A stretch of DNA of 64,000 bases from Marsupella aquatica (lineage: Eukaryota > Plantae > Marchantiophyta): positions 19,657,224-19,721,223 of the forward strand of contig OZ316897.1 of the NCBI GenBank assembly GCA_973895155.1. The letters are read 5' to 3'. The position numbers and the translations under genes were made by a program. Below, piece by piece: positions 12,128-37,060 of this stretch; the stretch's first letter is position 1; each line of letters opens with the position of its first letter. Under the pieces are notes generated by a model. That model saw nothing but the letters and a program-made list of their open reading frames with translations, was not told the DNA's origin and did no database searches.

Positions 12128-12587
12128 TAGCTAGCTAAATTAACCTTCTACTTAGTTACTAATTGAGAGCATTTAATATATTAAATTTGAATGATACCTA
12201 GTTTACTATCCATTTAGACAAGTAATTTGTTACATTCTAAGCAACTCGAGTTGAAACTAAGGTTTACTACAGACTAGACAGTACTAAGAGGCACTCACAT
12301 CCTATCATAGATATTAAGACTTCATGTAATATATAGTCTGTATTGATATTATAAAGGTATCCAAGTCCAATTACCTCCACCTATTCAAACTAGTATCCCA
12401 AAATATTATAATAATTAGTTACTTAAATAGATATACTACTTAGTACTAACCAGTTACAGTAAGTACTAAAGACATGTCTGATTCCAAACTAATTGACATA
12501 GACTCCCTCACTCTGACATGTCTAATTCCAAACTAAATGACATAGACTCCCTCACTCTGACAGAGTGACTACTAAAAAACATTTGAC

Positions 12588-15500: not shown

Positions 15501-16182
15501 CTGACTCGAAAGGAACTGTGATGATGCCAACCCCCACTTTGGTCCGATTATCCTCAACATACAAAATTTTCCACCTCCTTGGTCATCCAATTAGAACGCA
15601 AACTATAATCGTTGAAATTATAATTTGAAAAAACATCCCGTGTGGACAGGTCGTTTAGCATATCCTGGGAAGAACTCCTCCGAGTAACATCCTTTAAATT
15701 CTAGAATACAAAAGTGTCCAATGCTTCCTGAACGGTATCGGCTCCATTGTGAGGAAAGGGTAACCTCTCCCTTCCTTGAAAAACTTCACATATTTTCACA
15801 CTAATCCTAGAAGTGCCAAGTCTTTCATTGTGACAGGTCTCATCGGGATTCGTCTTGAACACAAATCCACGAGCCACAATCTGATTGCCGATCCAGAGCT
15901 CGACTTCATCACCAGATATAATCGAGTCTCCAAAACTTCCCACCGAAGATTTGTCTGGTACAAAACCGGGAACCGTATCCTTTGTAGAACAAGAGACATC
16001 CATTTGTGTTGTCGCTGGAGTTGACTGTGACTTCAAATATGCAAAAGAGGCATCCGCAGGAGTCGACAGCATCAAACAGGGTCCTGATTGGCGGCAAAGG
16101 GTAAGGAATTTCTCGTGATCCCTCATAGCACTTCTCAATGAGAACTCCTATACGATTACTTCCCAAATCAACATTACGCACT
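12588..16182 (-). pseudogene. Sola-like DDD transposase with N-terminal Tnp1/En-Spm-like repeats (copy A)
   Basis: IIHDKMDQAK, LQMDNSGKDNKN, FLMVGHTHEDVDALFS, GCCKLKCC, AKCTLC; several frameshifts; collinear with 27297-30981. Confidence 0.8.
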
Positions 16183-16394
16183 GAGAATCCCAAATGGGAT
16201 ACGCCGTATCTGGACCGCCATTAGACTCACAAGAGAAAATGTTGTTTTCCCAGGAAAGCTAAAGCTTGAGTCGGTGTCCGTCACTGAACGGCAGCAAGAG
16301 CTTCAGTGCGTGTTTAGTCAAACTACGCCTGCGAAACAATCAGCAATCCATAAGACTTTTCCCATCATTCCAAGAAAACTCTAGGTAGATACCA

Positions 16395-16870
16395 CATGGG
16401 ATACCCCGTACCCCACTTCGCATCCAATCTCTTTTTTTAGCTAAAGAGAAATCAAAACTGGACATTTGAAGGGTGAATCCCAAACGGGATACGCCGTATC
16501 CCATTTCGCATTCAACGTTGAGGTTTTGACATTTGGAGTCTAAGATGCTTCATATTTGGAGGTTGGATGTGACATGGGATACCCTGTATCCCACTTCGCA
16601 TCCAACCTCTTTTTTTAGCTAAAGAGAAATCAAAACTGGACATTTGAAGGGTGAATCCCAAACGGGATACGCCGTATCCCATGTCGCATTCAACGTTGAG
16701 GTTTTGACATTTGGAGTCTAAGATACTTCATATTCGGAGGTTGGATGCGATATGGGATACCCCGTATCCTACTTCGCATCCAACCTTCTTTTTTAGCTAA
16801 AGTGAAACAAAAACTGGACATTTGAAGGTTGAATCCAGTTCAAACTGGACATTTGAAGGTTGAATCCTTG
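16395..16870. repeat. 178-bp tandem repeat (~2.5 copies), each unit with two GGGATAC-N3-GTATCCC palindromes
   Basis: CTAAAG anchor at 16441, 16619 and 16797; isolated palindrome copies also at ~16195 and ~17184. Confidence 0.85.
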
Positions 16871-17379
16871 AATCCATGAAGATTCTCACTTGTTAGTCAA
16901 ATCTGATTTTTGGGGAATACAAGTTTGTATAGACGGTGTGCATTCGTCGAGAGTAAGAGGATACAGAGCGAGAAAAAATGAGTGGAAAATTCTCAAGCGG
17001 TGATCTCCTATTTATAGTTTTCTCTCTGACCGTGGTTAGTATTTGACTGCAGTTGCATCGCAGTCGGTTAAATGTTACCGTTGAGAAGAATTATTTGGGA
17101 ATATTCTTGACGGGTAAACCAATATCGGCACTTTTACTGCGTTTGTTTTAATTTTTTTTGGAATTCCGCGGTTGGATCCAAAATGGGATATGCCGTATCC
17201 CATCTTCGTATTCGTGTCGATTTTTCCCATTTTTTAAATTTGAAAAACTAGTTTTTAGGGGGAATACTAATTCTGTATCCAAGACTTTTTTGCTTTAGAA
17301 ATTTTTTTTGCCGCGGGCAAAATGAGAAGTGTGGTCACACTTCTCGTTTGGTCCGTCACTGTGTTGCCATTGATATCAT

Positions 17380-17765
17380 TCCTTCTAATAGGTTGTATAT
17401 CATCCTAGTTAACTTTGTCTAGACAGTATAGTCATTCTAAGGCAAATTTTCTTACTTAGTTAGATATCTTACCCAAGCTAAATGTCTTAAATATAGATGC
17501 TATCCAAGCTTATATGTTATTACTAGATTCTATCTATTTTCCAACCAAATGAACACTTTTGTCACCCAAATGTTTTTTAATATCATCCAATTTAATATTT
17601 AATTTTCCCAAAATTTCATTTTTTGTCTCCAAATTTACATTTAATGATACTTGAATTTTCATTTTTCATCTTCCAAATTTACAATTTTCATGCCTAAAAC
17701 TATGTTTTTGAATCTCCAAATTTCCCTATATCCTTTATAATTTCAGTTTTAATGAATATAGTGAT
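17380..17765 (+). mobile_element. Isolated 3'-terminal fragment of the Sola-like family (copy C)
   Basis: Collinear with 35175-35557 and ends in the same TIR (TTTTAATGAATATAGTGAT at 17765). Confidence 0.75.
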
Positions 17766-18357
17766 TGGAGAAATCATTTGGTTAAATTTCAGAAAGTAGG
17801 ATGTTTGGATCTCAATTGTAATTATTTTGTGATAGACCTCCGGGTAGACCAACTATTAGCCTAAGTAAGTCATAATTTGAACCTCCGAGTTGATTCTGAA
17901 GTATCACAATATTCATTAAAACTGGAAATTTAAAAGTCCAAATTATGATCCTCAAATTTACATTCTTGTCTCTAAAAAGTCCATTAATTTTGCTCCAAAT
18001 AAACAAGTTTTCAAGACTAAATATACACTCTTTTTGGTTTAAAATTACACTTTTGCACTCCAAATTTGATTTTAATCAATTAATCATAATACAAAAAATA
18101 TTAATATTAATTGTATTTGAAATTAAATAGATAAGTGACAAACATGTATCATTTGGTCAAAAACTCATGATTAAATTCAAAGTGAGATTAATCATCTCAT
18201 TTATCATAACATATATTCAAGGTTGGCTAGCCATAATGTCGATCCTACTCCAATGGTCAAGCTAGTGTAAAGTCCAAAGTAGTTCTATGACCTGTGAAAT
18301 AGAAAAATGATTGCATGACTCCAATCTTGTGTCCTACAATATACAGAAACATAATGA

Positions 18358-19433
18358 TTAATCATCTAAAATTTCAAATTCTATGTCTCCATGAATATGT
18401 CTACATGACTGATTTGAACAAGTGAGTCGCTCTCCATTTGGGTCATATAGTCTGTCACGAGTGCAAGTGTCTTTGGGATAACGGTTTTTAAACTTAGAGG
18501 TGAGATCCCTAGTCTTTAGAACTTCCCAGACAAATCGGCGAGGATTTTCTCTGAAGGGACCTGCATAAGACTCGCCCAAACAGTTGTTGACCACATCTTT
18601 CATATCATCTTCGGTCAGGTTCTCAAATGTAGGGTAAGATTGTACCATATCCCTCACTTCCCAACATATCTCATCTCCAGTGACATCCAAGATGGTATAC
18701 TCAATCTTGGAACGCCAAATCTTATTTCCCCACTTATGGGAAAGTAAAGCATAGATTGCAGCATTACTTTCACGGTCATCATTTATATTAACAAATGACC
18801 AAAGTGGATTGTTGACAGATATATATTGTCGGATGTCATAAGCCTTCCACAATTTTCTAAGGAATGGCCAAAGTATCTCTGGTAGAAAATTGTCACTCTC
18901 GGCAATGTGTGATCTGAAGGGAGTTGGGAACAAACCACTATACTGTGGATTTGCAAAAGCCTTCACTGGAGAGTCATCAATAAGTAGAGTGTTTGTATCA
19001 TCATACTTGTCTCCAAAATGACTCCACACCACACGCAAATCCTTCAACATAATATTTGCTTTCCCATCTGCTACGTCCGGTCTTTGTATGCCAGTATCAA
19101 AAGCATCTTCTTGTGTGAAAACAAATTTAAATTGCCTCCGCTCCTCTTCTTTGAAAATCAAATTCATCATTTCATTAGTTCTTGGCCTCCCCGCACAAGT
19201 CCACAATGCAACATCAAAACCTTTGAAAGCCACCTCCAAAAATTGGTGCAACCCTGGCCTTTCCACGTACATGAAATTGAATCCACCCCGTCTCCCCCAA
19301 TGCACACCCCGCACAGTTGTTGTAGATCTTAACGGTCCCGAGCTTTTTGTTTTCACACAATCCCAACAAATTTTGTTCAGGTCCAAAATCAAGAGTTTTC
19401 TTCTTATATCAGAGTGCAATTTAGGAGTGAAAT
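18358..19433 (-). CDS. FCP1/NIF-family HAD phosphatase-like domain with C-terminal CCCH-like finger; probably the last exon of the cargo gene
   Basis: KLLILDLNK, ERPGLHQFL, FDVALWT, MLKDL..VW, NTLLIDDSPVKAFANP; C-x14-C-x4-C-x3-H near the C-terminus. No ATG of its own; TTTGCAG acceptor ends at 19434. Confidence 0.8.
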
Positions 19434-19581
19434 CTGCAAAGATCCAAATGAATCAAAATTATATCTAAAAGATATAAAAGAAGAACTTAGGGTCGAACCT
19501 GGATCCGACCCGACCTAATGGGGAAAACAAACATTTTATTTTTGAATGTCAAAGCATTTTGATATATCAATGTAGAAGTAC

Positions 19582-22500
19582 CTTGCTCAAATGCTTTGTC
19601 TTGGACCAGGGTACCGCTTGCTGAAGGTAGACCAATAATATCCTTCGATGGAAGAGATGCTATGACAAAACTTTGGTCTGTCCATATATGATTTCCAAAC
19701 ATAATATTTTAGATTATTGTGAAAAATAGAAGAACGAAACCATAATATTAACCTCCACTACTAAATGACCCATATTCATCTATCATTTTATCACCTAGAT
19801 CACTTTGGATATCAGAATTGACGCCAACAGGAAGCTGCTCCACCAACGTTGGCGGCGCAAACACTGGACTCAATCTCAATTTGTCTATTATGTAATCAGG
19901 TTTGACCATTAACTTAGGCGCACCAAGTGGAAGGTTGTCTTCAATTGCTTGTGCAATACCAACTTGTAGGTCCGTGGTGGGTGTAGTGGCCCCAATATTC
20001 TGCCAACCTGCATCCAATGTGCACGATACCTGCGGTCTCTCGGGATGCAATTTTGATACTTCAGGGTTGAGAGGATTTGCTGGAGGGTCACCCTCAGGGC
20101 GACCCGACATCACTATGTTGAGTTGAGGTAGCCCTTCAACACCGTAGGTAGTAATGCCAACCATTTCTGTTGCTCGAGCATCCCAATTTCCGCCAAAATC
20201 CTCCTCTACCATAGGACTTGAACCTCCATCATCATGCTGCAACTCACCATCCTCAAGGTCAACTCGCTGAGGGCCCGGTTGGGGGTTGTCCATAGGCCCG
20301 CAAAGAACACTTAGATGAGCTCTACTAGGACCATGTACTCCCATCCGCTCTTTCATAAGGGAGGGAATCCTGTTGCACAAAACCCTTGCATATGCTTGGG
20401 TGAAATGGTGTTCTTGCAAAGTGTCTGAATAGACAAAACAATCTTGGTATGCCAACAAGGCCACCTTCAAAACCTGCCCTCCTGAAAAAAAATCGAGGAC
20501 AGTCTCCCCCTCACCGGAAAAACATTCAATAATATTTTTGAGCATGTGTCGGGGCTTGGCATGCGGATTGACAAATCCTCCTCGACTTCCGACCATCTCA
20601 AATATTGGAGCTTGCCGCAATAAATCTGCCATATCAAATGCGAGAGACTGCTCCTCTGTCTCATTCTCTTTTCCCTTGCTTTTCTCTTGCTTGTCAGCCT
20701 TCACTTCAATATTGAAATCACAGTCAACATCGAGGTGAAAACTAAATTTTGAATTGAACTCTGGCTTAAACAATTGATTCCAATCAAAATTGTCTTCACC
20801 TGTAATTCCAGCAAAAATGACACATTGGCATCGCCTCTTCCAATAACTCTGGCGTGGTTGTCTTCATTAGATTCTCACTGAAGAACGTCAAGACAGGCTC
20901 TGTTCGTGTGCGCCCAACTCCACCAAATTGTTTGCAGTACAACCCGTCTAATCTCACCATTAGACTTTGAGGGAAAGCCTCCTTCACAATGTTCTTCCTT
21001 AATAAACTGCTAAGGTAGACCTCCCCAGCTGCTCTTCGCAATTTTGTCAACTCAAGTTGAGATCCCAAGGCCGGCATGATGTTGACCACCGAAGCCCACG
21101 ATGTCCCCCCGGGAAACTTCTCCTTGTGCTTCTCAACAAAGTACTCAACAATGACTTGCTTCAATTTAGTCATTACCTTGATGGTATGAGCCATATCTGG
21201 CATTGACACCAGATCCATCTTGTTGGAGGCATCTTTCTTGAGAAGTGCTTTCTTCTCATAAACCGCGGTCAATATATCAATGATATCCTTAGAACTGATC
21301 TCCCCTTCAAAACATCTAAAAAGAGTTGGCATGACCAACTTTAGTGGCCGCGGCCCACCATACTCTCCTGCCCCGCCAGGGAGCTTCCCTGCCAACCAAT
21401 CCCAACAAACAGTTTGCCATAAATGGAAAAGCTTATCCTCAACAAAGAGCAACCAAAAAATGGCTTTCAGGCTCGACTTTCCCATTGTTATCTTTGCGAG
21501 GGCAACCAATCCTGCATTTACATTCATCCACCAAAAAACATGTTAGATATTTAAACTTAGAAACTTCAACTAGCTTCTCTGCCTCGCCCCTAGAGCGAGG
21601 CAAAGAAAATGACAAAGCCATATGAAAATGGTTGGGGCAATCATTGTATTCATAGTTCAATTCCGTTTGGATCGCTCCAAGAGCGAGGCAAAATTAAACT
21701 ACAGTTCCAACTAATGAAAATGTTTACCTGGTATTTCTGGTTGTCTATACTTTGGTTTGTTCCAATTCCTGGACGCGGTGGTTTCCCACATTCATCAAAT
21801 TGCCTTCTCGCATGAACAACTGTCTCTAGAAAACAAGACTTAAACTGCATGGTCTGATTTACTGCATTTGAAAGGCTCAAGTGCTCAACCAAAATTGCCC
21901 TTGGAGTGAGGTCTGATAAGATCCTCGCTTTCCAATATTGGAGTTTGCTAGCAAGATCAGTTAGCTTGGCATCCTTGTCTGCCCACCCTTGAATCCATTG
22001 TGCAGCCTTTGCGGAATGTTGCCCACTGATTGCAAGAAATTGTATCTCTTGTTTCTTAACACCAAACAAAAACTGCTTCCGATCGCGTGCGGTATTGTCA
22101 AAATGTAACAACTGCTTAGTGCGCTCTAGAAATGGAATCAAATCTGCAACATGTGGTTCCTGGCCAGGGTTTTTCATCATTGATTTTGCTATCTCTAAGG
22201 CATGAGCCTGGTTGAACATCTGATACACAAAAACTGCAGTAGGCGGAAGAATACTTTTAACCGGGATTTCAAAAACCTCCCTGATTCCAAAAGTGTAGTA
22301 TTGCTCAATGTTCGGCAAAGCTTTCTGCCCCTCCAATACATCTCGTTCCTCTGGTGCATCTGTTGGGCATGTATCATCCTCCGGATCCAAGACCAACCTT
22401 GCTTTTGACGCTGACACGGGCTTTGATTTTCCAATCTTGGCCTTCTTCTTGGGCTTCTTGTCGGAGTCCTTATCTTTCTTCTTCAACGCCGCCTTTTTTT

Positions 22501-23792
22501 CTCTAGTACTTCCTTCACTCCTTGGCTCTCTTTGTTTTCTCTTCTTTTGTGTTTCAGCCGGCGTCATTTCTTTGGCCTTCATCTTCATCTTCCCCTTACC
22601 TCGATGCTTTTCTTCCTTCTTCTTTTGAGTTGAAATCCACTTCATGCAAGCATCTTCGTCAAACTCATCAGAGAAAATAAAACTCTTATCAATTGCTTGC
22701 TCATATGAAAAGCGTGTTGTTTCAATCATCCTCTGGACAACCCATGTGTTAGGAAGATCTATAAGGTCCGGATGATCATGCATGTACCGCTTCACAGAGA
22801 GGAATCCAAAGACATCATCAACCCCACTTAATTTGAATCTTCCATGCCTCTCAAGAACATCCTCTGCAGTGAACCCATCTGGAAGAAATCCCATTGAACA
22901 AATACTAGCCTCCGAGCGTGCTATCCACTCCACGTTGATAATTGACGAGTACATCTTGATTGGCAAGTAAAGTCTCATCCACTGAGATCTTTCTCTGGAT
23001 TCAATAATGATTGTAACATTGCGGTTGTCACTGCAATTTACAAGGACCATAGGGCCCAACGCAACTATCTTCTTGTTGTTCATTGTCTCAGCAGTGATTG
23101 CCTTGATACAAATCATTGACAAGTCATTCTCCATGATCCCTACTTCAAGTGCCCACAAAAATCCTGCCTTATCTTGTCCAGGGAAAATAAAGTCCTTGAC
23201 ATCCTCGGCCATAATATTTAACTCTGGGGATCCAAGTTGTTATCCTGGCAAAACAAATTGAAATGACAAACATTAAAGCAAGAGATCTTCTATGTCGCCT
23301 CGCCCCTAGAGCAAGCTGGAGACAAGGTCTACATCAACAAACATGTGGGTTGGGTCGCTCCTGGAGCGACCCTAAGAAAACTTAAATCAAGGTCCAACCA
23401 ACAACAAATTTGGATCGCTCCTGGAGCAACCCTAGGAAAACTTAAATCAAGGTCCAACCAACAACAAAGTTGGGTCGCTCCTGGAGCGACCCTAGGAAAA
23501 CTTAAATCAAGGTCCAACCAACAACAAAGTTGGGTCGCTCCTGGAGCGACCCATGACAAATCTAAGGCAAGATAGAGCGACCCGTCAAAGACTAACTTGC
23601 ATCAATTGTTGAATCATACTTACGTGGAACTGTGATATGAAATCCCTTTGAGGCGGCCAAAGCAGATTCCACCGACATCTTTAGTAAAGTGTCTTGAGAA
23701 TCATACTCAAAGATTTTACTAGAATCAAAGTTCAAGGACTGCCCAGAACTAGAAGTGCTAGTAGAATCATCAGAACTAGAGGAAGTGGCCAT
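19582..23792 (-). pseudogene. Second, divergent ParB-like + partial amino-methyltransferase gene (multi-exon cargo of the Sola-like element)
   Basis: ParB-like FLAISGQHSAKAA; SAM-binding half HAKPRHMLKNIIECFSGEGETVLDFFSGG; N-terminal region and layout parallel the gene at 2018-5063. No motif IV visible; frameshift near 20830. The 5' exon boundary is tentative. Confidence 0.7.
23347..23552. repeat. 60-bp tandem repeat x3.5 containing the palindrome GGGTCGCTCC-T-GGAGCGACCC (probably intronic)
   Basis: Near-identical units recur at exactly 60-bp spacing. Confidence 0.9.
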
Positions 23793-24939
23793 TGAAAAAT
23801 GCCTCACAAACATTTAGATGACACGTGGCAGCCTAGGATACAAGAACGCCTATAGCTAGACCACACCACGGAGCGAGGCTACAGAGCGAGGAAAAAAATC
23901 TACTCTGAGCAAGGCAAAATCAACAGAGCGAGGCACGAAAATCTACTATGAGCGAGGCAAGAAGGAGGAGGGAAACCAGGGCAGCCGGGCAAGAAGACAA
24001 TGAAGGAGGAGATGGATGCAAGAAGACAATGAGGCAAATGAGGTAATGTCTTTGCCTTTTGCCTTCCTATACCCTCACTGCCACGGCCAATCCTACCTGC
24101 GACCCCCAGCCACGGCCAATCGTACCTTCAATGCCCAGCCATGGCCGATCGTACGCGACCTTACGCAACCCAGCCACTTGCTCCCTTCCACGCGCCTGTG
24201 AACTTGCAACCCTCATAATGACCTAGCTGTACGGGTATCCATAGATTTTGAAAAATGATGCACGGTCGTACGGGTGTCCACAGAATGCCGATCAGAGTAA
24301 TCAGACTTTCAGCCGCTCGATTTTGTGAACCTCTGACAAACTTGGCTAAAGCCTGCTCACAAATGCTATAAAGCTCTACAGTTCCAATCATTTCTCTCTT
24401 TTGTATGGCGCGTGCGTTTCTGGTCATTGCTCACTCTCGGTCTCGCCCTTCGGCCCTTGTCTATCTGACTGATTCTACTGACTTGGACATTTATGGTTAC
24501 AAGAGTTTGTGCAAGGAAAGTCCTGTTTCAAGTACATTGCATTAGTTTTGGTGTCCTTGGTTGGCGACACGTCTTCTACAGTCCTTAAGAGAGGTATTAC
24601 TTCATCTACCATTCTCTTAATTTCTTCTCTATGATATCCACCAAATATTTGGCCCTAGCTTTATCTTAATATATGGACCAAACTAAGCCCTAGATAATGT
24701 AGGGTTCCTAACGACACACTCGTCTTCCCACACGTCTACACACCACAATGGTCTAATTCAGCTTAATCATTCCCATGATTTATTCATTTCCATATTTTCT
24801 CTTTTCCTTCACAATTCTTGCTTCTCCAGGAGTGTGCTCATCTTTTCTTGCTCTCCCCTTGCCTCGCTCCAAGAGCGTCATACACTTACCTTTCATCAGG
24901 AGCATCTTGCCCTTTCTTTTCTCCAAGGGCATCCGCTCT

Positions 24940-25258
24940 CCATTGCCTCACCCTCGGAGCGTCCCTCAACCGCCTTGCCCCTAGAGCGACCCTCCATCGC
25001 CTCGCCCCTAGAGCGACCCTCATTCACCTTGCCCCTAGAGCATCTCTCCATCGCCTTGCCCCTAGAACGACCCTCATTCACCTCGCCCCTAGAGCGACCC
25101 TCATTCACCTCGCCCCTAGAGCGACCCTCATTCACCTCGCCCCTAGAGCGACCCTCATTCACCTCGCCCCTAGAGCGACCCTCATTCACCTCGCCCCTAG
25201 AGCGACCCTCATTCACCTCGCCCCTAGAGCGACCCTCATTCACCTTGCCCCTAGAGCG
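24940..25258. repeat. 27-bp tandem repeat x~11 (CCTCGCCCCTAGAGCGACCCTCATTCA)
   Basis: Directly visible array. Confidence 0.92.
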
Positions 25259-27002
25259 TTGTTGTGAAGTTCGTGGGCGATGTCGGGAAAGCCCAGGCTT
25301 CTGTCTGTCGAAAGAACAATGCGCTACGACGTGCTAATAAAACACTACGATCATTACCCAAAATCGTTCAATTGTCATGGGAACAACGAATGGAATCGGG
25401 GATGAAATGATCATGGTATATGCCAACTCCCCAAAGTTTCTGATGATGAAGGCTCGAAACTCAGTTTTTTGGCGACATATCACCCGAACATTACAATCTA
25501 TACTAAAATTAGGCCTAGGAACTCTATTGAGGTCCATCTTGTAATTCAGAATCACAGTACAAGCTTTTTGAACATAGGAAATTCACCTACGGTTGTCAAT
25601 TTCCTTTGTACCATATCAAACAAGCCAAGTACTTACTATCCTATCATCCCTCAAAGGTTCGAGTCAAAACTCTATCTCCATCAATAGGTACAAAGAAAAA
25701 TGGTGGACCTATCTAGATTGCAGGCTACGAAGACCCTGTCACCGTCACCATACTATATATCTCACTTAAAGATAGATATACCCTCGAAAAGTTTTCCTAA
25801 GCATGACATAGCTTCTTATCTATTTCCAGGAAAAAATTTCAAATATGCATCTTATTCTAGGAAAATATTATAAGCAATATTCAAACTCAGAAAAATATGG
25901 TTCTATTTGAGCATAATCTAAACCTTCAAGTCATCATAACTTTCTAGTATTATACCAAAATCAAGTGATTCCAAAAGAAAACTTGGTGTGCTCATCAAGG
26001 TGATCAAAGTTAGAATACTATGTCCCTAAGAAAAATATATCATAATGATTTCCTATATAGTACAACCTTTACTATTTAATAACTTTCTAACAATGTCACA
26101 TCTCTAGCTTCCAAGCACATTCTATGAATTCTTATACTTCCCACACTATTCTTGCACATAAGTTTGGAATAACAAAGAAAACTCACCATGCCACCCCCAA
26201 GGGGCAGGCCTCTTATTTATAGTGCTTTGGAGGGGTAATGACTCACCCCTTTGGTACACATGGTCCAATAATATTTGAACATGTAAACAACAAGGTGTTT
26301 GGATGCTATTGGGCATGTTTCCATGCTTATCCTCCTTTCGACACCTAATTGGCCATGTGTTTGATTCTAAATGGACATGCAACCATGCAAGGCCTTTTTA
26401 CACATGTATGCCACGTATCCCTATATATTTTGCTATGTCACAAATCTAGTGGAAAAGTAAAGCCACCTAGTAGGCCTATACTCTAGTTTATGATAATTAT
26501 TCCTATAGCCCACAATACTTTATTTAGAAGTGCTTTGTTGTCACTCTAACCCATCATAGGATGCCTAAATTTTGTAACTAGGCATGATGAATCACCAAAC
26601 TAGCTACTATGTTAAAACATAAAAACATATGCCCCACTTATGTGCATATGTAAGCGTGGGTAAGAACAAAGGTTGAGCGGATTCTTCAACCTCCCGAAGG
26701 AATCGCACACCAAAGTGATGCACGATGAATTGCCAAAAATGAACTTTCTCCATAACCCGAAACTAAAATTCAACGTGATTTGAAAATCCAACTGGCGCCC
26801 CGTGCACTCCGTCCATTGCTGCTTTCTTGCCTTAGAGTTGTTGCCTCCTCCTCTTGTTCCTCGTTTTTTTATGAATCGGCAACCCGCTACAAGCATAGGT
26901 ACCCGACTTATGGTCTTATTTGTCATCTTAAGTCGAGATGTTGTAAACCCAAAATATACCCGTGTAACTTAGGTGTACTATTTGCACCAAAGTTACCACG
27001 AC

Positions 27003-27119
27003 AGCGTCCCTCCATCGCCTCGCCCCTAGAGCGACCCTCCATCGCCTCGCCCCTAGAGCGTCCCTCAATCGCCTCGCTCCTAGAGCGTCGCAACCTTGCC
27101 TCGCTCCAAGAGCGTCCCT
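27003..27119. repeat. 27-bp tandem repeat x~4 with the same CCTCGCCCCTAGAGCG core, upstream of the transposase exon
   Basis: Directly visible; same core as the 24940 array. Confidence 0.85.
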
Positions 27120-27296
27120 GACCTTAGAATCCTGTTGTGTAAAGCCAATACACATAAAATCCCAAATATTTTTTTCCTTTAAATAGAATTCAAATGTTTA
27201 GATCTAAAATTGTAATATCTAGAGTAGTGCTTATCAGTATGCACATCAGTTGAACAATTTTTAAATGTTTTTGGATGCAGAGATCCTTTCGCTACC

Positions 27297-30200
27297 ATGA
27301 GTAAATTTATGCAAGGGGATGAAGTTTCATTGATAATTGATGGTTTTGAAGTGGCAATTGGGACCATCCAAAAGGTTGATCCCAAAGACACTATACACAA
27401 TATTTGTCTTGGGAAAAATCGAATTGGGGTCCTTATCGAGAGGTGTCTTGAAATATCTTGTCCACTACCATTTCCATCCAAAACATCATCGAGCCTAGGT
27501 GATGCAGTTGACTCGTGTGTGATCTGGGATTCTTCCTTGGCATATTTGAGGTCTTCAACATTGCCGAAAAGAACCGCTGTGGATGGTGTTCCTACTCCAG
27601 TGGACGAGGATGAAGGATGTTCCGAAATGGACATTGGTGGTAAAGGAGGCAACCTTGCTGAAGGAGAGGAGGTTGAGATGTTCATTTTAGATGAACTTGT
27701 ATCAAAAGGAGTTGTCTTCAATACCAATCCAATGGACACTTGTCATAGTGAACGACTCGGTGTTGGCCGTGTTAGTATACAAATATCAGAGGTTGTTCAG
27801 GGAAATAGAAAATTACCGTATCCGCATCCTGGAGCTGACATAGTGCAAGAGGCAATGCAGACTTGGGTAATGTGGGATGTTGCTGATGTTTCAAGAAAAG
27901 GCTCTATTCAAGGTTCTGGCGTGTTTGTTGGTGCAAACCCGGGTGCAAACCTGTTTAAGGATCTTCCATTGAAAGATTTTACAATGCGTTCCAACTGGAT
28001 GGCAGAGGAAGTTGACTTGTATGATGTTTCTCATTGTCGTAAGGTTGCGACAGGGGTTATCACAGTTCCTTTTGAAGCAGGTGCTGTTGATGATGAACTT
28101 CTTGGTCCAGAGCATGTGGGTGTAGCTGTTGTGAATATCAACGATCCCGCATTATTTCCAAATATCCATGTTGGTACTCCAGGTTTGGTGAGGTGGGAAA
28201 TCAAATCTTTGTTGTTGATTTCATCTCAAATGTTTCTTGGGGATATCCTTGAGAAAGGTTCACATGTGTGGATAGAATCGGGTCGAAATGAGAGCGACCC
28301 GGATTTGGATGGTGATGGGAAACCTCAAAAAAAAAAACATTTGCAATCAAGGGCGCTTTTGAAAATCACCGAGGAGTCCATTGATTCCATCCAAAGAGAA
28401 GGTTGTTGCAGGTTAAAGTGTTGCTTGAACATGCCAAGAGAGGACTTGGAGGCAATGAGGAGGGAATTCCATGGAATGTCAAGTGACAACAAAACAAGTC
28501 ATATCTTCAATCTTTTTGGGTGTAGAGAAGACCAAGTCAAGAGAAAAGGATTTTTTGTTCTAAAGGGACGTGTGGTTTGTAAGGATGCGTTCATAAAAAT
28601 GCATGGGTTTAGTACGGCAAAGTATTATGATTACAAAAATCAGTACGAAGCTGGGTGCACAATTGGTTTCCATGGAAATCAAGGGCAACATAAGACACGA
28701 TCAAGCACCTTGCATGCTCGTGCATTGTTGGAGTCCATTTTAATCCAAAATGGAGAACCAATGCCACATCTTCCCTATGGTGGGTCCAACGGCACCGATA
28801 CTGTCGAATATCGACTCCCATCATGTTTCACTAAGAAGGAGATTTTTCAAGAGGTATTTGCAAAGATGTAATTGGACGGCTACGCTAAGGTTACTGAAGT
28901 TACCATGTACAACATCTGGAAAAATTCTTTTGATAATTTTGACTTTCACAAGGGCAGTGCATTTGCCAAGTGCACATTTTGCACTGAGTTCAAAGATCAA
29001 TTGATGCGGGAGAAGAGAAAAAAAGAGCGTGCAGAGATTGAAGAGAAAAGAGCACAACATCTTCGTGAACAAATGTCAAGGAGATATGTTTACTATGCTC
29101 ATAGGGTTCTTGCAAAGAAGGATCCTCAAAACTATCTTTGCATTATTCATGATAAGATGGACCAAGCCAAGACTTGGATCCCCAGATGGGCCCCACTCCA
29201 AAATCTCTCTCTGGTAGTGGTCAACCTCTGCCCATTGCCCTTACTGGGATGTTAACCCATGGAAGGGATCCAGGAGTGTATGCACACTTTAGTTTGACTG
29301 GCCTTTGGCCTGGAGATGTAGACTTCACTGTGACATCTTTGGCCAAATGCCTTCGAGATTTGGAGGATTACACTGGAGACAAAATGGGAGACATGCTTGA
29401 AGCTTTCAATTGGAACGCAACTAGGCCAATATTTCAGTCTCTTTTGGACTTTGAAGCATTTCAAGCGGGTTACTTGGAACCCAAAAATGTTTCAATTCTC
29501 AAGTTTCAAGGCCTTGATGACGGTCAAGAGAGCCAAAAAACCAGCACAACAGATGCTAGTTCTAGAGTTGATCCTGAGACTACGAGCTCTTTCAAGCCCT
29601 TACCAAGGCACCTAACACTGCAGATGGACAATTCAGGAAAAGATAATAAAAATCAAGATGTGATGGCATTTTGCAGCGAGCTTGTTAGCAGGGGGTGTTT
29701 GAAACTGTGCAAATGTCATTCCTCATGGTTGGCCACACCCATGAGGATGTGGATGCACTATTTTCTCAAGTATCCAAACAGGTCAGGTACAAAGAGGTTG
29801 CTACCCTCCTTGCGTTGATGGCTGAGGTTTGGGAGTGTGAAAGCATCCATCCCGTACCACGATTGATTCAGGAGGTTGCATCTTACAAGCAGTATTTGAA
29901 GGCTTTCCAAGTGAAAGAGATTGAAGGTCACTCAAAACCAGTGGCATTTCTATTCTCCATGAGGGATAATGTGCCAGTGTATCAATATAAAGCACATGTC
30001 AAACAACCTTGGCTTCCAGCAACAGGGAGGTCAATTTGGAGAATTGATCTCATCACAAACACGCTCATTTTACCGGAGGGCCAACCATTTGCAAAACCTA
30101 TATCGGGGGAGGTACAAAAGAAAGCCAAGGAAATCATCCCATTCCTTAATCGTTACATTGATTTCTTGAGGAAAAGTTGCAAGGATGAGACCTCTGCAGC

Positions 30201-30981
30201 ATACCGCGAGAGATTTCCTTTGGTGAAATATTGGGAGAGGCTTGTTATGGCACTCTCTGAGGCACTTACAATAGAAGGGGAGGGAGAAAGACAATTGTCA
30301 TTGACAACTGATTTCTGGCCAAAGACTAACCATGGCACAGGTTACAAGGTGATTTTGGGGACCTCTCAACCTTCAAGTGAACCTACTCAAAATTCAGAGA
30401 TGATGGACCTTCAAAATGAGTACATGGAAGAGATGGAAGGTCAAGCTGCACCCTTCGTTGGTGCATGAGAAGAGCGAGAACTTGCACGTTGGATTCCCCT
30501 ACAAGATATTCAAGAGGGTCACTTTGTGTTTTTACGTCCAGAGGATGAATGGGAGCAAAAAAATGGCAAAGGGTGTTTCTGGTTAGTTCGAGCTTTGGGT
30601 GGTGTGGATCCAAACCATGAGGTTTCTTCACTAGATTTGCAATTTAGTGAAGGGTCTTCTTCAAGGTTTTCTAAGAGCATTCACCTAAGTAGCATTCCTA
30701 AGCGGTATGCTCCTATGTTCCAAGTGCAATGGTGGAGGCCTAAACATGGTAAGCATGATGCAAAGGATGATGTTCGATACGAACATTGCTTTCAGACCAC
30801 TAAGACTTGGGAGCTAGATCCTGGGTTTAACACTATCACTCAAAGTTGGCAGTTTGCAAATTCTGCAATGTATGGATTTAAGTCAGGTGCCAAAGAACAA
30901 AATATTATGGATAGAGGTTTGACAATTCCCAAGAATGTTTTGAAAACTCTCAAAACTTACATGGAAGGTATTGATGAGTAG
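27297..30981 (+). pseudogene. Sola-like DDD transposase (copy B), three N-terminal Tnp1/En-Spm-like repeats, several stops and frameshifts
   Basis: Repeats VAIGTI..DPKDTIHNICLGKNRIGV / VSKGVV..NPMDTCHSERLGVGRVSI / VATGVI....LLGPEHVGV; HDKMD, MDNSGKDNKN, VGHTHEDVD; stops at 28869 and 30466. Confidence 0.82.
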
Positions 30982-31081
30982 AGTGATAGAGTGGTCACAA
31001 GTGTCCACTATGTAATGACTTGTAGTTAGGAGGGTCAAGTTAATTTCCATGCATTTGTCTAAAGTAAGTAAGAGAACAAGG

Positions 31082-34000
31082 TGTCACGTCATCAGCTTTG
31101 GCCTTAACTCGGGCTTCAGCTTTAAACGGGCACCTCCTTCGTAAATATGAGGGTTCGGGCAGGGAGGGAAGCGCGTAATGCACCTAATTCACGTAAACTA
31201 GCGCTAAGTGCGCTTACTGTTAGATACGGACATCTCCTAGGTATGGTTTATGTTCCGCCGCCGGAACGTACCTTAGTCGATAACAGGATCGACCCCGGCT
31301 TAAGGACTTCTAAGCCTTTGTGTTGTCCGCCTTCGATCCGGATTCAATGATACAGGTCCTCAACCCATGCTCGCAACCACATACCCGCAAGCTGCACCCC
31401 GTGCACGACTCGGGTAGTGCGTTCGGCCCGGCGTTGCCACCTATACACGAGATTCACACACACATACACGCATACAAGCATACAATCTTGATTTACATGA
31501 AGGAAATAATGGGAAAGGATTTTACTACATAGGGGACATGTGCGTACACTTGGTTGACCCGACAGCTCCGGAATGAACAGATTCAAGGCTGAGAGAGTAT
31601 ACTACAACGGAGCCCGGCTCTGTACTTGCCCGGCGAGCTTAGTCCTACCCCCTCCCCTTGGTACTCTTTCACTCCCAGAGGTCGGGACTCCCGCGCATAC
31701 CACGGATGTCCAACTCTGAGACTAAAAACCCCCCCTGCCTCTACCGAGGGGTGCACTAAATACTAAGGGCCGGAGAACGGAGTGTCCTCCCGACCAAAGA
31801 TTCACTGACTTAGGTCCTAACTAATCTGACTGTCAGGCCGAAAAACGGTTGTGTCTTATTAGAAGATCCTAATCTACGCAGGCTGGACAGCATGGCAGTG
31901 CTGCTGTAACTAAGGCAGGTGCCTGTCCCAATAGCCTGACTTAGCTACTCCTAACCCTATTCTATTCCTACTCCGCCGCTAATGCCTGGTACGCTTGCCA
32001 GAGCCGCCCGAGTGGGAGCGGCCATCCCGCTGCTTACGAAGTCTGTCGTTGTCTGCCTTGAGGAGCTGGACCTGGTCCAGCAAAGATTCGTTCTCTCGCT
32101 TCGCCGCGTTTGTCTCCTCCGCTGCCTCCTCCAGCTGTTGGGCATCGCTCGTCAGCTTGCCCGCCAGCTAGTCCTACTTCTCGGAGCCGTGCCACTTCGG
32201 CCTGTAGCGTGGCTATCTTTGTAGTGTCCCGTTGGGCCCGTTCTTTGGCCTCCTTCAGGTCCTTCTGCCAGATGACAGTTTGATTCTTCAAACTGTCAAT
32301 CTGGTTCCGAAGTTGTGCAATCTCGGCCTCGTTCCCAGCTTTGGCCTGTTCGGCTACGGTGGTAAGGGCGTGCGCCTTTGCTAACAAATCATCGGCGGCT
32401 GCAACTTTGGGTCGTAGTTGCAGAAGCTCAGCCTCTTGAGCCGCAACTTCGTTCTTTAAGTATACGGACTCCACCCGGTACCGCTCTATCCTCTGAAGGG
32501 CCTCTGACTGGGCCTGACCTGCCTTTATTGCAGCAACTAACTCCTGATTGAAGAAACAGGCTACCTTCCGGGCCATGAACTCCCCGGTATCCCAGGAAAT
32601 TTGATGAGAAAAATCTCCCAGAAGCCCGTTCAGAAATGTACCCGGTACGAAGAGTTCCGGGTGATCCAGGTTGTGCCTGTCCGGAGTTGGGCACGGGCAG
32701 ACGTCAACACGCGTGGGGGCCGGGGCAGTGACATCCAGCCCTGGGGACGTAATGTTGGAAGGGGCTGGAGTGTCCTCCTGCAGCAATGTCTGGTTCTCCG
32801 GAATAGCCACCGGTGGGTCTTTGGGAGACACGGGCTCGAGTAAGACCTCCGCTGTACCGACTTCTGTACTTAGCCCGGCCTGTTGGATCGCATCAACAGT
32901 TGCGATAACCGACCCATCCGGTACCTCCTCGGTTACAACTACAGCTACTCGTGGAGGTGGGGTGGGTGAAGCTGGCGTGTCCGCTGGACTTTGGGCCTCG
33001 GGTTGGGGCCGTCTCTCCAAGGCCGGGAAAACCCACCTAGCTGGGACCAGCTTTGTAACGTTGACACGGGGAAGGGTTCGTCGATCAAACCGAGCGTACC
33101 ACTCAAGAATGATCTCGATGTGGCTAGCGAAATACGCCTTCCCACCAATTACAGCGTCTTCCTTCGCCGCTCCATCTCTTCATGGAATTTCTTAGCGAAG
33201 TACAATGCCCACTTCCTAGGTCGATAGTTCTCGACCTGGATAACCTGGGTGGCGAAGATCTCCCCCCGGGGTTCCATCATGTGGAGGGCGTACCTTTGGA
33301 ACTCCAGTCGCTCAGCTATCTCGGGGATGAGGCAGGTCCTCATCACGAACTCGTTGTCCACTGCTCCTTCTGAGGGAAAACTTGAGGATTGGTACTTGGC
33401 TCCCTTGCCCCCGGGAGCCCGTGATTCGACTTGATGATCACCTTCGGGTAATCCAAAGATCATCTTGAGCCGTTCTTCCGTGAGGGACATATTCCTTCCC
33501 CGCAGCCGAGTATGCTGACGTGCGTCATCATAATTCTTGATGAATTCTGTCATGTCCTCCTCGTATGACCTGCAAGTGTTCCAGGGCAGAGCAGCGAGGT
33601 GCTCAAATCCCTGAGTCTTCAGGTACACTGCATGCTTGGGATGGAGGATGTTCTTATGCACGTTTTCCCCCATGCGGTGCATTGTCACCTTGGCCACGGC
33701 TACCGTGGCCAATGGTAACCCGGATGCAGTGGCGGGTTCCTTCCTCTTCTTCCCCCGTGACTGGCTCGGGGAAGGTGACACCTCCCCATCCTCTCGATCG
33801 GGCATAGGTAGTGCTACCGCCGTTAGTATTGGTCCCGGGGCGGCCACGGTCACCGTGTTGTTTGCTGGAGCCACTCCTTGGGTCCGAGCATGGGGAGGGG
33901 ACGATGTAGTGTTGGCCCCCTGAGTGTTTGCTCCTCTAGGCTGCTTGAGCAAGGGTGGGGTAGCCTCGTCGTCGTCGCTAAGGTCCACAGCGTTGATGAC

Positions 34001-35067
34001 GGAGTGTACTTGTACTACTGGCGGGGCGATCGGCGGTGGGGGTTGGCTAGGCTGAGGCTAAGACTGAAGCTGAGCCTGAGCCTGAGTCTGCATTGGTACG
34101 GGTACGGGTATGGGGTCCACTGGGCTGGCGCCGGTGTTTGCGGGTCTAGTTCCTATGAAGCTCTGCAGGTGCTGGTAGAAGTTCTTCGAAGCAAGTGCGG
34201 ACGACCTTGTCGAATGGGTAGTGCTGGACTCACTGTTGATGATAGCCCGAACCTGAGCAGGGATGTGGTCGAAGTGATGTCGTTGCAAGTCGATCGTACC
34301 CGGGATATTGAAGACCTCGTCCGGAAGCAGAAGCAATGCTTCCCAGAAACCGATATATTTGTCTCCATTGAAGAAGTACCCAGATACCTCTGCTGGTCGG
34401 TAAAGCTCGCTCTGAAACGGGTAGTCAAAGTTAAGGATGTAGTGGTGTCGTCCTGCTAGGCGGATGGCTCTCTCGTACTCGCGTTTGATTTCGTATCGGC
34501 GCGGGTTGGCGTGTTTCAACGAGTCGGCCAAGTGCCTTCCGGTAGATAGGTACTGCGTCCAGAATCGAATGGCCAAACTGGAGAGGATTGTGTGCGACAT
34601 TCAGAGGAGATAGTAGTGGCGACTTAGAGCGAACGAGAGAGCTGGGGTCGAAGCTGGCGCGTGGACTGATGGACTGGTGCACTCCAAAGGGTCGGCTCCC
34701 TTTTTATACCTTGAGGGCTTGCCGATCCCCCGACATATCCTCGTTGCCTATAGGCTGAACCGTTCACGCTTGTAGTGTACCGGCCACTCCGCTGGTTTGA
34801 GTCACCGCGTGTCAGTGGACGCCTCCCGAAGTTTGTTATACGGACCCGAGGGAGGGGCCCCTCCACGCTCGTAACCCGGGCGTGCGAATGGCGACGCGCC
34901 GCCAGCCCGAACATGAATTCCCTTTATTGACTAATGATTTCCTACTCATAATGGCTACCTAAATACTATCGTTATGCTAATCATAGCGGCCTAAGATGCT
35001 CCTAACGCGCGTGCTAGGCACGGTTTAGACCAAATTACTCATTACTCGCCGTACTGGCGGCGTCACA
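31082..35067. mobile_element. 3986-bp TG...CA-bounded insertion, solo-LTR-like, protein-coding
   Basis: Starts TGTCACG, ends CGTCACA; 5-bp TSD CAAGG at 31077-31081 and 35068-35072; GC-rich relative to its flanks. Confidence 0.85.
31957..34600 (-). pseudogene. Accessory protein with a plant-retrotransposon mobile-domain-like region plus coiled coil; broken by a stop and frameshifts
   Basis: ORFs 34058-34600 and 33149-33988 are in frame across a TAG; QGFEHLAALPW..EFI..LTEERLKMIFGLP matches the 49168-51906 protein; TATAAAA at ~34702-34708 on the minus strand. Confidence 0.65.
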
Positions 35068-37060
35068 CAAGGCTTGCAATCAAATACTCTATGATCTCTC
35101 TTAGTTATTGAATGGACTTTTTGATAATTATTGTTATTTTTGTCTTAGTACATATATTTCTAGAAAATGATGGCAGTTCTAAGTTACTTGGATGTCATCC
35201 TAGTTTGAATATAAGATATTTAACTTGTCTAGCATTTCATTGTTGCTTAGATAATGATCCTATCCAAGCTAGATGTTTTGAGTATAGATGCTATCCAAGC
35301 TTATGTGTTATTACACAAGTTCTATCTATTTTCAACCAAATGAACACTTTTTATCACCCAAATGTTTTTTAATATTATCCAAATTAATATTTTCTTTGCC
35401 CAAATGTCTATTTTTTTGCCCCAAATTTATAATTCATGATGCTTAAATTTTCATTTTTCATCCTTCAAATTTACAATTCTTATGCCTAAAAGTGTGTTTT
35501 TAAATGCCCAAATTTCCAAATCTTCTTTATAATTCCACTTTTAATGAATATAGTGATAAGTGTAATAAATTCCAAATTCAGATTTTGTAGCTATACTTAA
35601 CTAGTACCATGGCCTCATTGCATATAATTTGTACTCACCAAGGTTTTACTTACAAAGCATGCCTGGGTACTCAGGCGAGTAGACTCAACCAATCAAGCAG
35701 ATTGGTCATAAGTTCCAGTTAAGTTCAGAGTCAACTTACTTCTAGATGACAGGGCAAACATTTGTATTAATAGCAAGCCCTGGGCAATTATTCACTCAAG
35801 TTTTTCAAGCTTGCAAATTACGCATGGGTATTCAAGCCAGTAGGTAGACTCAAACAATGAGGCATATATAACCCCTACCAGTTCCTACTCCAAAGTTAAA
35901 ACATTGGTTTAAATTTCTTTTTGGCTAAGCCAAAACAAAGTTGAAAATACTCGATGCAACCTGGAATCAAAAGCTAAAGATCTTGAGGTCGTGGGAGGCG
36001 ATGGCGGCAGGATCAACACACGAGGAGAATCAAGCGATGGTGGCAACGAGCATGCACGGAGGAAAGCAGTGGCGGAGAGAGGGAAGGGGAATAGACACGA
36101 AGATCATGAAGGCAACAAACGAAAAGAAAGCAGCCAAGGCACAATGAATAGGAGAACGTAACGACAGGTAGTCTCAAGAGGAGACATCAGACAGTCCAAC
36201 AAATAAGTATCCACCCTCAATATTCAAAGGCTAGAAGGACAACAATAGAACAATCAGTCACATAGTCATAGAAGATCACAATGCCCTGTCAAACTCGTAA
36301 GATAAAGGAGAGGTCATTCAGTCCAGGGTCAGTCTGACCGACATCAGGACATGCAATTCAAAATTGCCAACGGAAGTTGCGGATACTTCCACACACTTAA
36401 AGTAAAGTGCAGTAGGTCTTCTCTTTCTCAAATACTCTCAGCAACACTCCATGTTTCCAACAAGCGGATAGGGAACCTTTATTCTCCTTGGAGTCAATAG
36501 CTAGAATCTCACGACAAGAATGCGGTATGAACGATTGGGATGCCACTGAAAACTCAGGCTGCCAGGGACCTTGCTGCTCTTGATTCAGTCTTGAGCCTAG
36601 CCCTCTAGCAGACTACAAGGCGACTGGCTCCAGTCAAGCATCAAAGTAAGGGAAATTAGTCAACTCGGCCGAATGACATCCACACTGGGTCTGGCGAGAA
36701 AGAATCCAGAACCTCGTTGATGGACACCCACTATTCATTATTGTAGAACCCTAAACCCTAAACAACCTGTTGGAGTTGATGAATCGAGCGGAGTGCTTTG
36801 CAAGCATCATCTCTTCCGGTCGTCTCTCACTCTGATAGATAGACTGTAAATCTATTGATACAAAATTGAACACACTGTGAAATTAAATTGAGCCGCAAAT
36901 TCATAGAATTCAAAAGAACGTCACTCCAACGTCCAAGAAAATGAAGTCTTGATTTTCTCAATCTTGCCTTTCAAGCTATCCGGTGGTTGTTGGGAAATGC
37001 GATTCGTCTTAATGTTCCCACAACTCCTCTATTTGCAATTATAAATGTTGTCGTTCTGGC

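What the first reader, a model, noticed from the sequence alone, without database searches (positions are those of the whole stretch)
17903..35557. Large Sola-like DNA transposon carrying a ParB-methyltransferase-phosphatase cargo gene
Seen: ~27-bp TIRs and a 4-bp TSD (AAGT) enclose ~13.7 kb (net of the nested insert). Inside are a DDD/GHTHEDxD transposase on the plus strand and, divergently, a multi-exon gene with a ParB-like domain, the SAM-binding half of a prokaryote-type amino-MTase and a HAD phosphatase. Known: 4-bp TSDs and a DDD triad with a GH motif fit the Sola superfamily, usually described as compact transposase-only elements. Inference: this is a cargo-carrying family that encodes its own DNA-modifying or anti-silencing machinery. 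I know of no description of this arrangement but cannot search to exclude one.
Basis: partly seen in the sequence, partly recalled or inferred. Interest (0 to 1): 0.92.

Follow-up and report, generated by a model that had tools for sequence, protein, structure and literature searches.

The report
Liverwort Sola transposon with pseudo-methylase cargo
This is a real, likely recently mobile 12-kb jumping gene, probably from a liverwort, whose second gene (ParB-like, methylase-like and phosphatase-like parts) likely binds the element's own palindromic repeats to keep it active; the design is already described in a brown alga, but here the methylase family lacks its usual catalytic motif.

Summary
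The element is real. It has 32-bp imperfect TIRs and an AAGT duplication, and the exact empty site occurs in 3 of 4 sequencing runs laid. Contigs about 1% divergent cover both cargo and transposase at about 9-11 times the empty-site depth, so the cargo looks like a fixed part of a small young family. The same pairing shows in Calypogeia and Riccia gene numbering and in 3 distant metagenome loci.

- A second nested insert (25260-27003) was missed, so the net length is about 12 kb.
- The 'half' methylase is a deletion in this copy.
- Sola elements over 15 kb are known.
- The arrangement is published: Ectocarpus Sola1-1_Ec32 (PMC12477816).

What is new, as far as my searches show:
- It is a land-plant lineage.
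- The methylase fold lacks DPPY in 33 of 33 rows covering that motif, yet keeps a conserved SAM-loop variant.
- The ParB box II lacks its arginine.
- An FCP1-like phosphatase is fused on.
- 21 palindromes sit in the introns and the divergent spacer.

Best guess: a non-catalytic self-binding regulator. Verdict: new variant of a known kind.

The parts
17899..17902 (.). Left 4-bp target-site duplication AAGT
   Evidence: empty-site joint
17903..17934 (+). Left TIR, 32 bp, 28 of 32 matching the right TIR
18358..19433 (-). Cargo exon 5 (predicted): FCP1/NIF-like HAD domain, motif I reads DLNKI rather than DxDxT
   Evidence: Pfam NIF E=3e-16; UBLCP1 3shq E=1e-8; 36% to the NIF part of Riccia P0252; splice phase
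19582..19659 (-). Cargo exon 4 (predicted 78-nt linker exon, in phase between exons 3 and 5)
   Evidence: canonical AG/GT sites; inference, no RNA evidence
19753..21511 (-). Cargo exon 3: helical domain, then beta-class N6/N4 methylase fold (motif I DFFSGGQ); about 275 nt covering the motif-IV half are missing near 20820 in this copy
   Evidence: (X1 record 2)
21728..23244 (-). Cargo exon 2: N-terminal domain, basic linker, ParB-like domain (box II reads ISGQHSA)
   Evidence: donor site read
23624..23792 (-). Cargo exon 1 (predicted; ATG at 23792)
   Evidence: C. fissa P0011 has a similar N-terminus; inference
21584..27115 (.). 21 sites of the near-palindrome TCGCYCCWRGAGCGW: 2 in intron 2, 5 in intron 1, 14 in the divergent spacer (27-bp tandem units); none in exons, none outside the element
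   Evidence: 26 strand-matches at 21 sites, 0.03 expected; families D1, D8, D14
25260..27003 (.). Nested insert 2, 1,744 nt, TG..CA ends, 4-bp duplication GCGT; likely a solo LTR; splits the palindrome array
   Evidence: depth dips there and the listed contigs from X2 and X4 are mostly about 12% divergent
27297..30981 (+). DUF7869 (Sola-like) transposase, broken here (stops at 28869 and 30466, frameshifts near 29185 and 29691). Relatives show N-terminal Transposase_23-like repeats, an RNase H core (HDKMD / MDN..KDNKN / GHTHEDVD) and a C-terminal BAH/chromo-barrel-like domain
31082..35067 (.). Nested insert 1, 3,986 nt, TG..CA ends, 5-bp duplication CAAGG; very high-copy LTR-type repeat, absent from family contigs
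   Evidence: joint 31075->35067 in X1, X2, X4
35526..35557 (-). Right TIR
   Evidence: X1 record 6 ends at 35557
35558..35561 (.). Right target-site duplication AAGT

Best explanation
This is a decayed copy of a Sola-like cut-and-paste transposon of about 12 kb, likely from a liverwort, whose divergent second gene is predicted to encode one ParB-methylase-phosphatase protein that likely binds the element's own palindrome arrays and would keep its two genes transcribed rather than methylate DNA. Shown: boundaries, duplication, empty site, the parts, the motif changes across the family, and where the palindromes lie. Inferred step 1: the DUF7869 transposase cuts at the TIRs and makes the 4-bp duplication. 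Inferred step 2: the ParB-like and helical domains recognise the 15-bp palindromes in the shared promoter region and the cargo introns, much as ParB recognises parS. Inferred step 3: the methylase fold keeps a cofactor-binding loop but has lost the base-binding catalytic motif, so it would act as a DNA-binding, reading or shielding module. Inferred step 4: the FCP1-like domain would contact a phosphoprotein such as RNA polymerase II. The net effect would be sequence-specific self-protection from silencing, analogous to VANDAL accessory proteins.
For: Family level: in X1, contigs over the cargo (depth 309-314), transposase 5' part (286) and right end (349) compare with 32.7 for the empty site; X2 and X4 give similar ratios. 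The window copy differs from those X1 contigs at 80 of 7,094 nt. Cross-species linkage: C. fissa cargo CAM6091065 and transposase half CAM6091067 are on one contig (1 of 7 cargo loci, chance 0.017); Riccia R1sor_016354 (methylase+NIF in one protein) and R1sor_016355 (DUF7869) are adjacent tags on one contig (1 of 2 Riccia cargo proteins looked up). One protein: P0294 holds ParB, helical and methylase parts in one 1,009-aa ORF; P0252 holds methylase and NIF. Non-canonical but conserved motifs: motif IV is D-F-x-R (D 30, F 28, R 24 of 33 rows), 0 of 96 relatives have [DNS]PP[YFW], motif I is DFFSGG in most of 43 rows; ParB box II is SGQHS in all 12 proteins where the motif pattern matched, and the arginine lost there is needed for NTP binding in tested ParB folds. 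Palindromes lie only in non-coding parts of the element and recur in three repeat contexts. Petroll et al. propose the same self-binding for the ParB gene PAG3 beside inverted-repeat arrays.
Against: No binding, expression or methylation data were obtained. No listed contig spans the element and contig depth is not a copy number, so co-occurrence in every copy is inferred. Summed depth over the transposase core is several times that over the cargo, so related families lack this cargo or carry a diverged one. Of 23 metagenome loci with at least 7.5 kb upstream of the match, 19 show no ParB, methylase or NIF gene. Palindrome arrays also lie near transposases with no ParB gene detected (window element 2, L004, L019, L051), so the transposase could be the binder. 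Distant cargo proteins keep DPPW (L074) or DLPF (L021), so catalysis is retained elsewhere. Six of 7 C. fissa cargo loci had no transposase among those I listed within 2 accession numbers.
Confidence: 0.42

Rival explanations
1. The cargo is a transposition cofactor, like CACTA TnpA or the Harbinger Myb protein (recalled): it binds the internal palindromes to fold the element or recruit the transposase, with no role in silencing.
For: Two-gene layout conserved across liverwort classes; repeat arrays inside the element; non-canonical catalytic motifs fit a scaffold.
Against: The arrays are in the promoter spacer and introns, more than 3.6 kb from either end. Many related transposases have no such gene nearby.
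Confidence: 0.25
2. The cargo is an active but atypical DNA amino-methylase that marks the element's own repeats with 6mA or 4mC, using the D-F-x-R motif.
For: The whole beta-class fold is predicted, with TM about 0.6 to N6_N4 methylases including viral ParB_N fusions. The motif-IV Asp and the SAM loop are strongly conserved. This is the function proposed for the algal proteins, and a liverwort 4mC enzyme exists.
Against: No PP[YFW] in 96 relatives and no row with the last Gly of FxGxG among the commonest letters. DIRS1 methylase domains are a precedent for a likely inactive, transposon-borne fold.
Confidence: 0.2
3. The cargo is an autoregulatory repressor that limits transposase expression by binding the shared promoter.
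For: 14 of 21 palindromes lie between the two start codons; copy number is modest. ParB-fold proteins such as KorB regulate genes (KorB clusters; function recalled).
Against: Repression alone does not explain the conserved methylase and phosphatase folds.
Confidence: 0.1
4. The cargo is a chance passenger or nested insertion with no function for the element.
For: This copy's cargo is broken; the cargo is patchy among relatives.
Against: No termini of its own; even depth with the rest of the element; domain-structured conservation; the same pairing in Calypogeia, Riccia, three metagenome loci and Ectocarpus.
Confidence: 0.03

Closest known systems
Sola1-1_Ec32 of Ectocarpus (PMC12477816; passages and supplementary table rows read, figures not seen)
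   Same: Large Sola element, 4-bp duplication, accessory gene on the strand opposite the transposase, encoding ParB-like plus N4/N6 methylase domains; its transposase's best hit is the moss Sola1-1_PPa.
   Different: 21.5 kb with 282-bp TIRs and AACCG termini, against about 12 kb, 32-bp TIRs and ATCAC termini here. Its 1,104-aa protein is described with two domains and no phosphatase. Its catalytic motifs are not given in what I read. I could not compare sequences.
Red-algal Plavaka accessory genes PAG2 and PAG3 (bioRxiv 2025.02.11.637652; section 8 read whole plus passages, supplements closed)
   Same: Transposon-borne PF01555 methylase and ParB-like domains; inverted-repeat arrays beside the ParB gene; cassette moves between transposon superfamilies.
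   Different: Two separate genes (methylase+SET; ParB+2OG oxygenase) in EnSpm/Plavaka, Mutator or Zisupton elements; no phosphatase mentioned.
Phage and prophage ParB_N + N6_N4 methylase fusions (bioRxiv 2025.10.10.680097; passages read)
   Same: Domain pair and order; Atlas structural neighbours of the methylase part include such viral fusions.
   Different: Prokaryotic; the liverwort family has lost the box II Arg and the PPY motif, and has introns and a HAD fusion.
DIRS1-borne N6A methylase domains (PMC4738411; passages read)
   Same: A transposon-borne amino-methylase fold judged likely inactive.
   Different: Retrotransposon polyprotein, PCIF1-related clade, no ParB domain.
VANDAL/VANC anti-silencing system (as summarised; detail recalled)
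   Same: Proposed logic: an accessory protein binds the element's own motif arrays.
   Different: Mutator-like elements of eudicots and an unrelated protein family; function shown there, only inferred here.
Marchantia MpDN4MT1 (bioRxiv 2021.02.12.428880; passages read)
   Same: A prokaryote-type beta-class amino-methylase in a liverwort.
   Different: Host gene with a TSPPY motif and shown activity; no sequence comparison made here.

Membership tests
Sola superfamily | 4-bp target-site duplication | tested here: met
   AAGT on both sides and single at the empty site; criterion from PMC10741241
Sola superfamily | TIRs (11-1124 bp) and length (2-9 kb, some over 15 kb) | tested here: met
   32-bp TIR, about 12 kb net
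Sola superfamily | RNase H-fold transposase with a DDD triad | tested here: inconclusive
   Model of relative P0143 matches Mos1 and integrases at Z about 7, rmsd 3.6, 164 aligned, which is a middling Z. Candidate acids lie in HDKMD, MDN and GHTHEDVD; whether the third is the Glu or the last Asp was not resolved.
Sola superfamily | Homology to curated Sola transposases | not testable with these tools
   No Repbase sequences on hand; Bao 2009 and Kojima 2019 not held; Majorek supplement gave no Sola alignment. That DUF7869 is the Sola core is recalled.
Sola1 group | Placement with Sola1 references on a tree; AWWT target preference (recalled) | not testable with these tools
   The tree had no references. 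The one target seen, AAGT, is not AWWT. Sola1 is likely by analogy with Sola1-1_Ec32 and the moss element.
Sola1-1_Ec32-type accessory gene | Opposite-strand gene with ParB-like plus N4/N6 methylase domains inside the TIRs | tested here: met
Beta-class N6A/N4C DNA methyltransferase | Fold with motif IV before motif I | tested here: met
   Atlas model of P0012 residues 140-420, TM 0.58-0.63 to PF01555 clusters (low-confidence model, pLDDT 0.44)
Beta-class N6A/N4C DNA methyltransferase | Catalytic motif IV [DNS]PP[YFW] | tested here: not met
   0 of 96 relatives; D-F-x-R consensus in 33 rows; region deleted in the window copy
ParB/Srx NTPase fold | ParB-like fold | tested here: inconclusive
   Atlas: DUF3723 clusters at 0.96 by features; ParB_N clusters TM 0.46-0.59, under the bar for a name; DndB E=0.03; no PDB sequence hit
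ParB/Srx NTPase fold | Box II arginine (GxxR) | tested here: not met
   SGQHS in 12 of 12 pattern matches; DGxHR is kept in L013 and L074
FCP1/NIF HAD phosphatase | Pfam NIF above cut-off | tested here: met
   59.9 bits against 21.8
FCP1/NIF HAD phosphatase | DxDxT/V motif I | tested here: not met
   Reads DLNKI; seen in this copy only, not tallied across relatives

The most novel reading that the evidence does not exclude
Liverwort Sola transposons have kept, across the Calypogeia-Riccia split, a phage-derived ParB-methylase turned into a triple pseudoenzyme (no box II Arg, no DPPY, DLN phosphatase). It loads on parS-like arrays in the element's promoter and links them to RNA polymerase II: a second, independent sequence-specific anti-silencing system in land plants.
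Probability: 0.2. Interest if true: 0.85.

Novelty: new variant of a known kind. Interest (0 to 1): 0.52.

Why it matters
ParB-methylase accessory genes of transposons have been named in algae but, in the passages I read, their function is only proposed. This family gives a land-plant case with a young multi-copy family, an empty site, a defined candidate binding motif and relatives annotated in two liverwort genomes, so the self-binding idea can be tested directly. The conserved loss of the catalytic motif suggests that, at least in this lineage, binding rather than methylation is the selected function.

Tried and rejected
- No whole genome is held, so copies could not be collected and dN/dS was not computed.
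- No RNA holder was listed.
- A second read-laying at higher likeness gave no result, so the junctions of insert 2 and the flanks of other copies stay unseen.
- Metagenome scan with the ParB alignment found nothing. The viral scan gave 3 weak hits (E=4e-4), not followed up. The viral scan with the transposase found nothing.
- My AlphaFold model of P0012 failed (pLDDT 32) and was not used.
- Foldseek on the transposase model had no match at E<=0.001; the BAH-like hits are weak (E 0.04-0.1).
- PDB sequence searches with the ParB profile and with L013 found nothing.
- The tree (62 of 66 cores, about 170 columns) dropped this element's own core and used the 80%-identical neighbour (13368) instead. 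It puts the liverwort rows in one supported group and L013, L021 and L074 far away. It cannot tell old inheritance from repeated capture.
- I considered that the ParB-methylase gene at 2003-5063 lies inside the adjacent CACTA element; no matching CACTA terminal pair was found, so this is unresolved.
- I considered 11706-17765 as one element; the flanks AAAA and TGGA do not match, so it was rejected as a single insertion.
- fetched an unrelated paper because I misremembered a DOI.
- Paper searches found no description of this cargo in a land plant. Repbase entries for the large moss Sola1 elements and the closed bioRxiv supplements (Petroll Table S6) were not seen and may contain one.
Full report
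Observation. The ends at 17903 and 35557 are inverted copies matching at 28 of 32 positions, each flanked by AAGT. Public contigs from 3 of 4 runs laid join 17898 to 35558 with four shared letters, which is the exact empty site. The element is therefore a real insertion with these limits. Net of both it is 11,916 nt, or about 12.2 kb with the 275 nt this copy lacks.

Host. Named relatives of the cargo come only from the liverworts Calypogeia fissa and Riccia sorocarpa, and 94 of the 120 listed transposase relatives are from Riccia (my count). A liverwort host is inferred. No genome is held.

Family. In run X1, contigs cover 17925-19922 (depth 314), 19923-21462 (309), 21777-23378 (309), 27049-28332 (286) and the right end without insert 1 (349), against 32.7 for the empty-site contig. 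X2 and X4 give ratios of about 7-10. The window copy differs from those X1 contigs at 80 of 7,094 positions. The tool warns that depth is no copy number and that no piece spans the element. I read this as roughly ten near-identical copies that carry cargo and transposase together. The stop at 28869 and the frameshift near 29185 are absent from most laid contigs, so the damage looks specific to this copy. Summed depth over the transposase core is several times higher, so related families exist without this cargo at 80% likeness; one such transposase lies at 12589-16150 in the window (80% identical).

Transposase. It matches PF25273 DUF7869. The full-length relative P0160 (1,230 aa) adds an N-terminal Transposase_23 hit. 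A model of relative P0143 (pLDDT 75) aligns to Mos1, Metnase and integrase cores at Z about 7, with weak BAH/chromo-barrel matches that I assign to its C-terminal beta domain. A 4-bp duplication, TIRs and size fit the Sola description in PMC10741241 (passages). Direct homology to curated Sola proteins could not be tested.

Cargo gene. Canonical splice sites give five predicted exons on the minus strand, about 1,620 aa if the deleted part is counted (my sum). The fusion is supported by natural relatives: P0294 holds ParB, helical and methylase parts in one ORF, and Riccia R1sor_016354 holds methylase and NIF parts in one protein. The 'half methylase' is a deletion: X1 record 2 has 275 extra letters near 20820, and relative P0012 has about 85-90 residues there. 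In the family the fold is whole (Atlas TM about 0.6 to N6_N4 methylases, some with ParB_N; low-confidence model), but the catalytic motif is not. Among 96 relatives from the exhaustive search none has [DNS]PP[YFW]; 33 rows covering motif IV read mostly D-F-x-R, and 43 rows covering motif I read mostly DFFSGG. The ParB-like domain is closest to fungal DUF3723 clusters by features and to ParB_N clusters by structure, below the naming bar. Its box II reads SGQHS, without the arginine that tested ParB folds need for NTP binding; some phage ParB-like proteins have GNHT there (recalled), so loss of binding is not certain. The HAD motif reads DLNKI.

Linkage elsewhere. In C. fissa, cargo CAM6091065 and transposase half CAM6091067 share a contig; 1 of 7 cargo loci is this close to one of 25 listed transposases (chance 0.017). 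In Riccia, R1sor_016354 and transposase R1sor_016355 are adjacent; the other cargo protein looked up, R1sor_011498, had no listed neighbour. Among 80 metagenome loci with a DUF7869 transposase, L013 and L074 have a divergent ParB (DGxHR) plus methylase gene, L074 with an OTU domain and intact DPPW; L021 has an upstream methylase+SET gene; L051, L052 and L061 (one locus seen three times) have divergent NIF-like ORFs only. Of 23 loci with at least 7.5 kb upstream, 19 showed none of these. Pfam was run on 135 ORFs picked mostly from 175 candidates; my own profiles were run on all 8,560 ORFs.

Palindromes. TCGCYCCWRGAGCGW occurs at 21 sites, all inside the element and all non-coding: 7 in two cargo introns and 14 in the spacer between the start codons (0.03 expected). 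It recurs as singletons, 60-bp units and 27-bp units, so the motif is kept beyond one tandem duplication. Different palindrome arrays lie near other family transposases with no ParB gene detected (window element 2, L004, L019, L051; 3 of 30 loci scanned), which leaves the transposase as a rival binder.

Mechanism. I commit to a non-catalytic self-binding regulator that favours the element's transcription (0.42). The rivals are a transposition cofactor (0.25), an atypical active methylase (0.20), an autorepressor (0.10) and a passenger (0.03). The position of the arrays at the shared promoter, and the many relatives with no cargo nearby, favour regulation over a required role in cutting. None of the binding or regulatory steps is shown.

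Known systems. The arrangement is in print. Ectocarpus Sola1-1_Ec32 (21.5 kb, 4-bp duplication) has an opposite-strand gene for a 1,104-aa ParB-like plus N4/N6 methylase protein (PMC12477816; passages; supplement rows). Red-algal PAG2 and PAG3 carry the same domains with inverted-repeat arrays (bioRxiv 2025.02.11.637652; section 8). Iyer et al. describe likely inactive DIRS1 methylases (PMC4738411; passages). Searches found no land-plant case, no phosphatase fusion and no report of the motif loss; Repbase and the bioRxiv supplements were not seen. Two unchecked AI notes from this scan describe similar elements in other genomes; I count them as leads only.

Verdict. A real element, and a new variant of a known kind. 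Interest 0.52: the headline arrangement is already described, but the liverwort form has distinctive, testable features.

Noticed in passing
window 2003-5063 (+): A second, distantly related multi-exon ParB-like (IGGNHSA) plus methylase gene with near-canonical motifs (LADIPYG; LDICSGSGT, Pfam N6_N4_Mtase above cut-off), downstream of a G-rich repeat spacer. Its host element was not identified; it is a candidate active counterpart.
   Followed up: partly
window 5700-10757 (-): Broken CACTA transposase (Transposase_21, DUF4218) with a SET-domain ORF at 9858-10757; methylase plus SET cargo recalls red-algal PAG2. No terminal pair found.
   Followed up: partly
window 11706-17765: Related Sola-like transposase (80% identical) on the minus strand, with a degenerate TIR at 11706, 178-bp repeats holding the palindrome GGGATACGCCGTATCCC at about 16180-17200, and an orphan right end of the main family at 17449-17765; no shared duplication.
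   Followed up: partly
window 17250-17365: High-depth stretch; in run X5, 29 contigs leave the sequence at 17365 with unlike flanks, and a 10-bp-stem hairpin lies just upstream. Possibly the end of another mobile element.
   Followed up: no
window 27297-30981 (+); model of P0143: The transposase seems to carry CACTA-like Transposase_23 repeats at its N-terminus and a BAH/chromo-barrel-like C-terminal domain, a possible chromatin reader (weak hits).
   Followed up: partly
P0006 (C. fissa ParB part): Nearest Atlas clusters are fungal DUF3723 proteins; DUF3723 is, as recalled, an accessory gene of Starship elements, hinting at a shared ParB-like accessory family.
   Followed up: no
L074:711-4283 (-), L021:2360-5743 (+), L013:1564-4122 (-): ParB/methylase cargo in distant DUF7869 elements swaps its extra domain (OTU protease, SET, none detected) and varies from intact to degenerate motif IV.
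   Followed up: partly
window 37061-60148: Gypsy-type remnant (RT-RNase H, zinc knuckle, protease) between long direct repeats, with a 3.9-kb tandem duplication at 48160-55871 encoding coiled-coil ORFs, and 24-bp repeat arrays in inverted orientation at 37923-39140.
   Followed up: no
window 61500-63257 (+): LINE ORF1-like protein (DUF4283 plus zinc knuckle).
   Followed up: no
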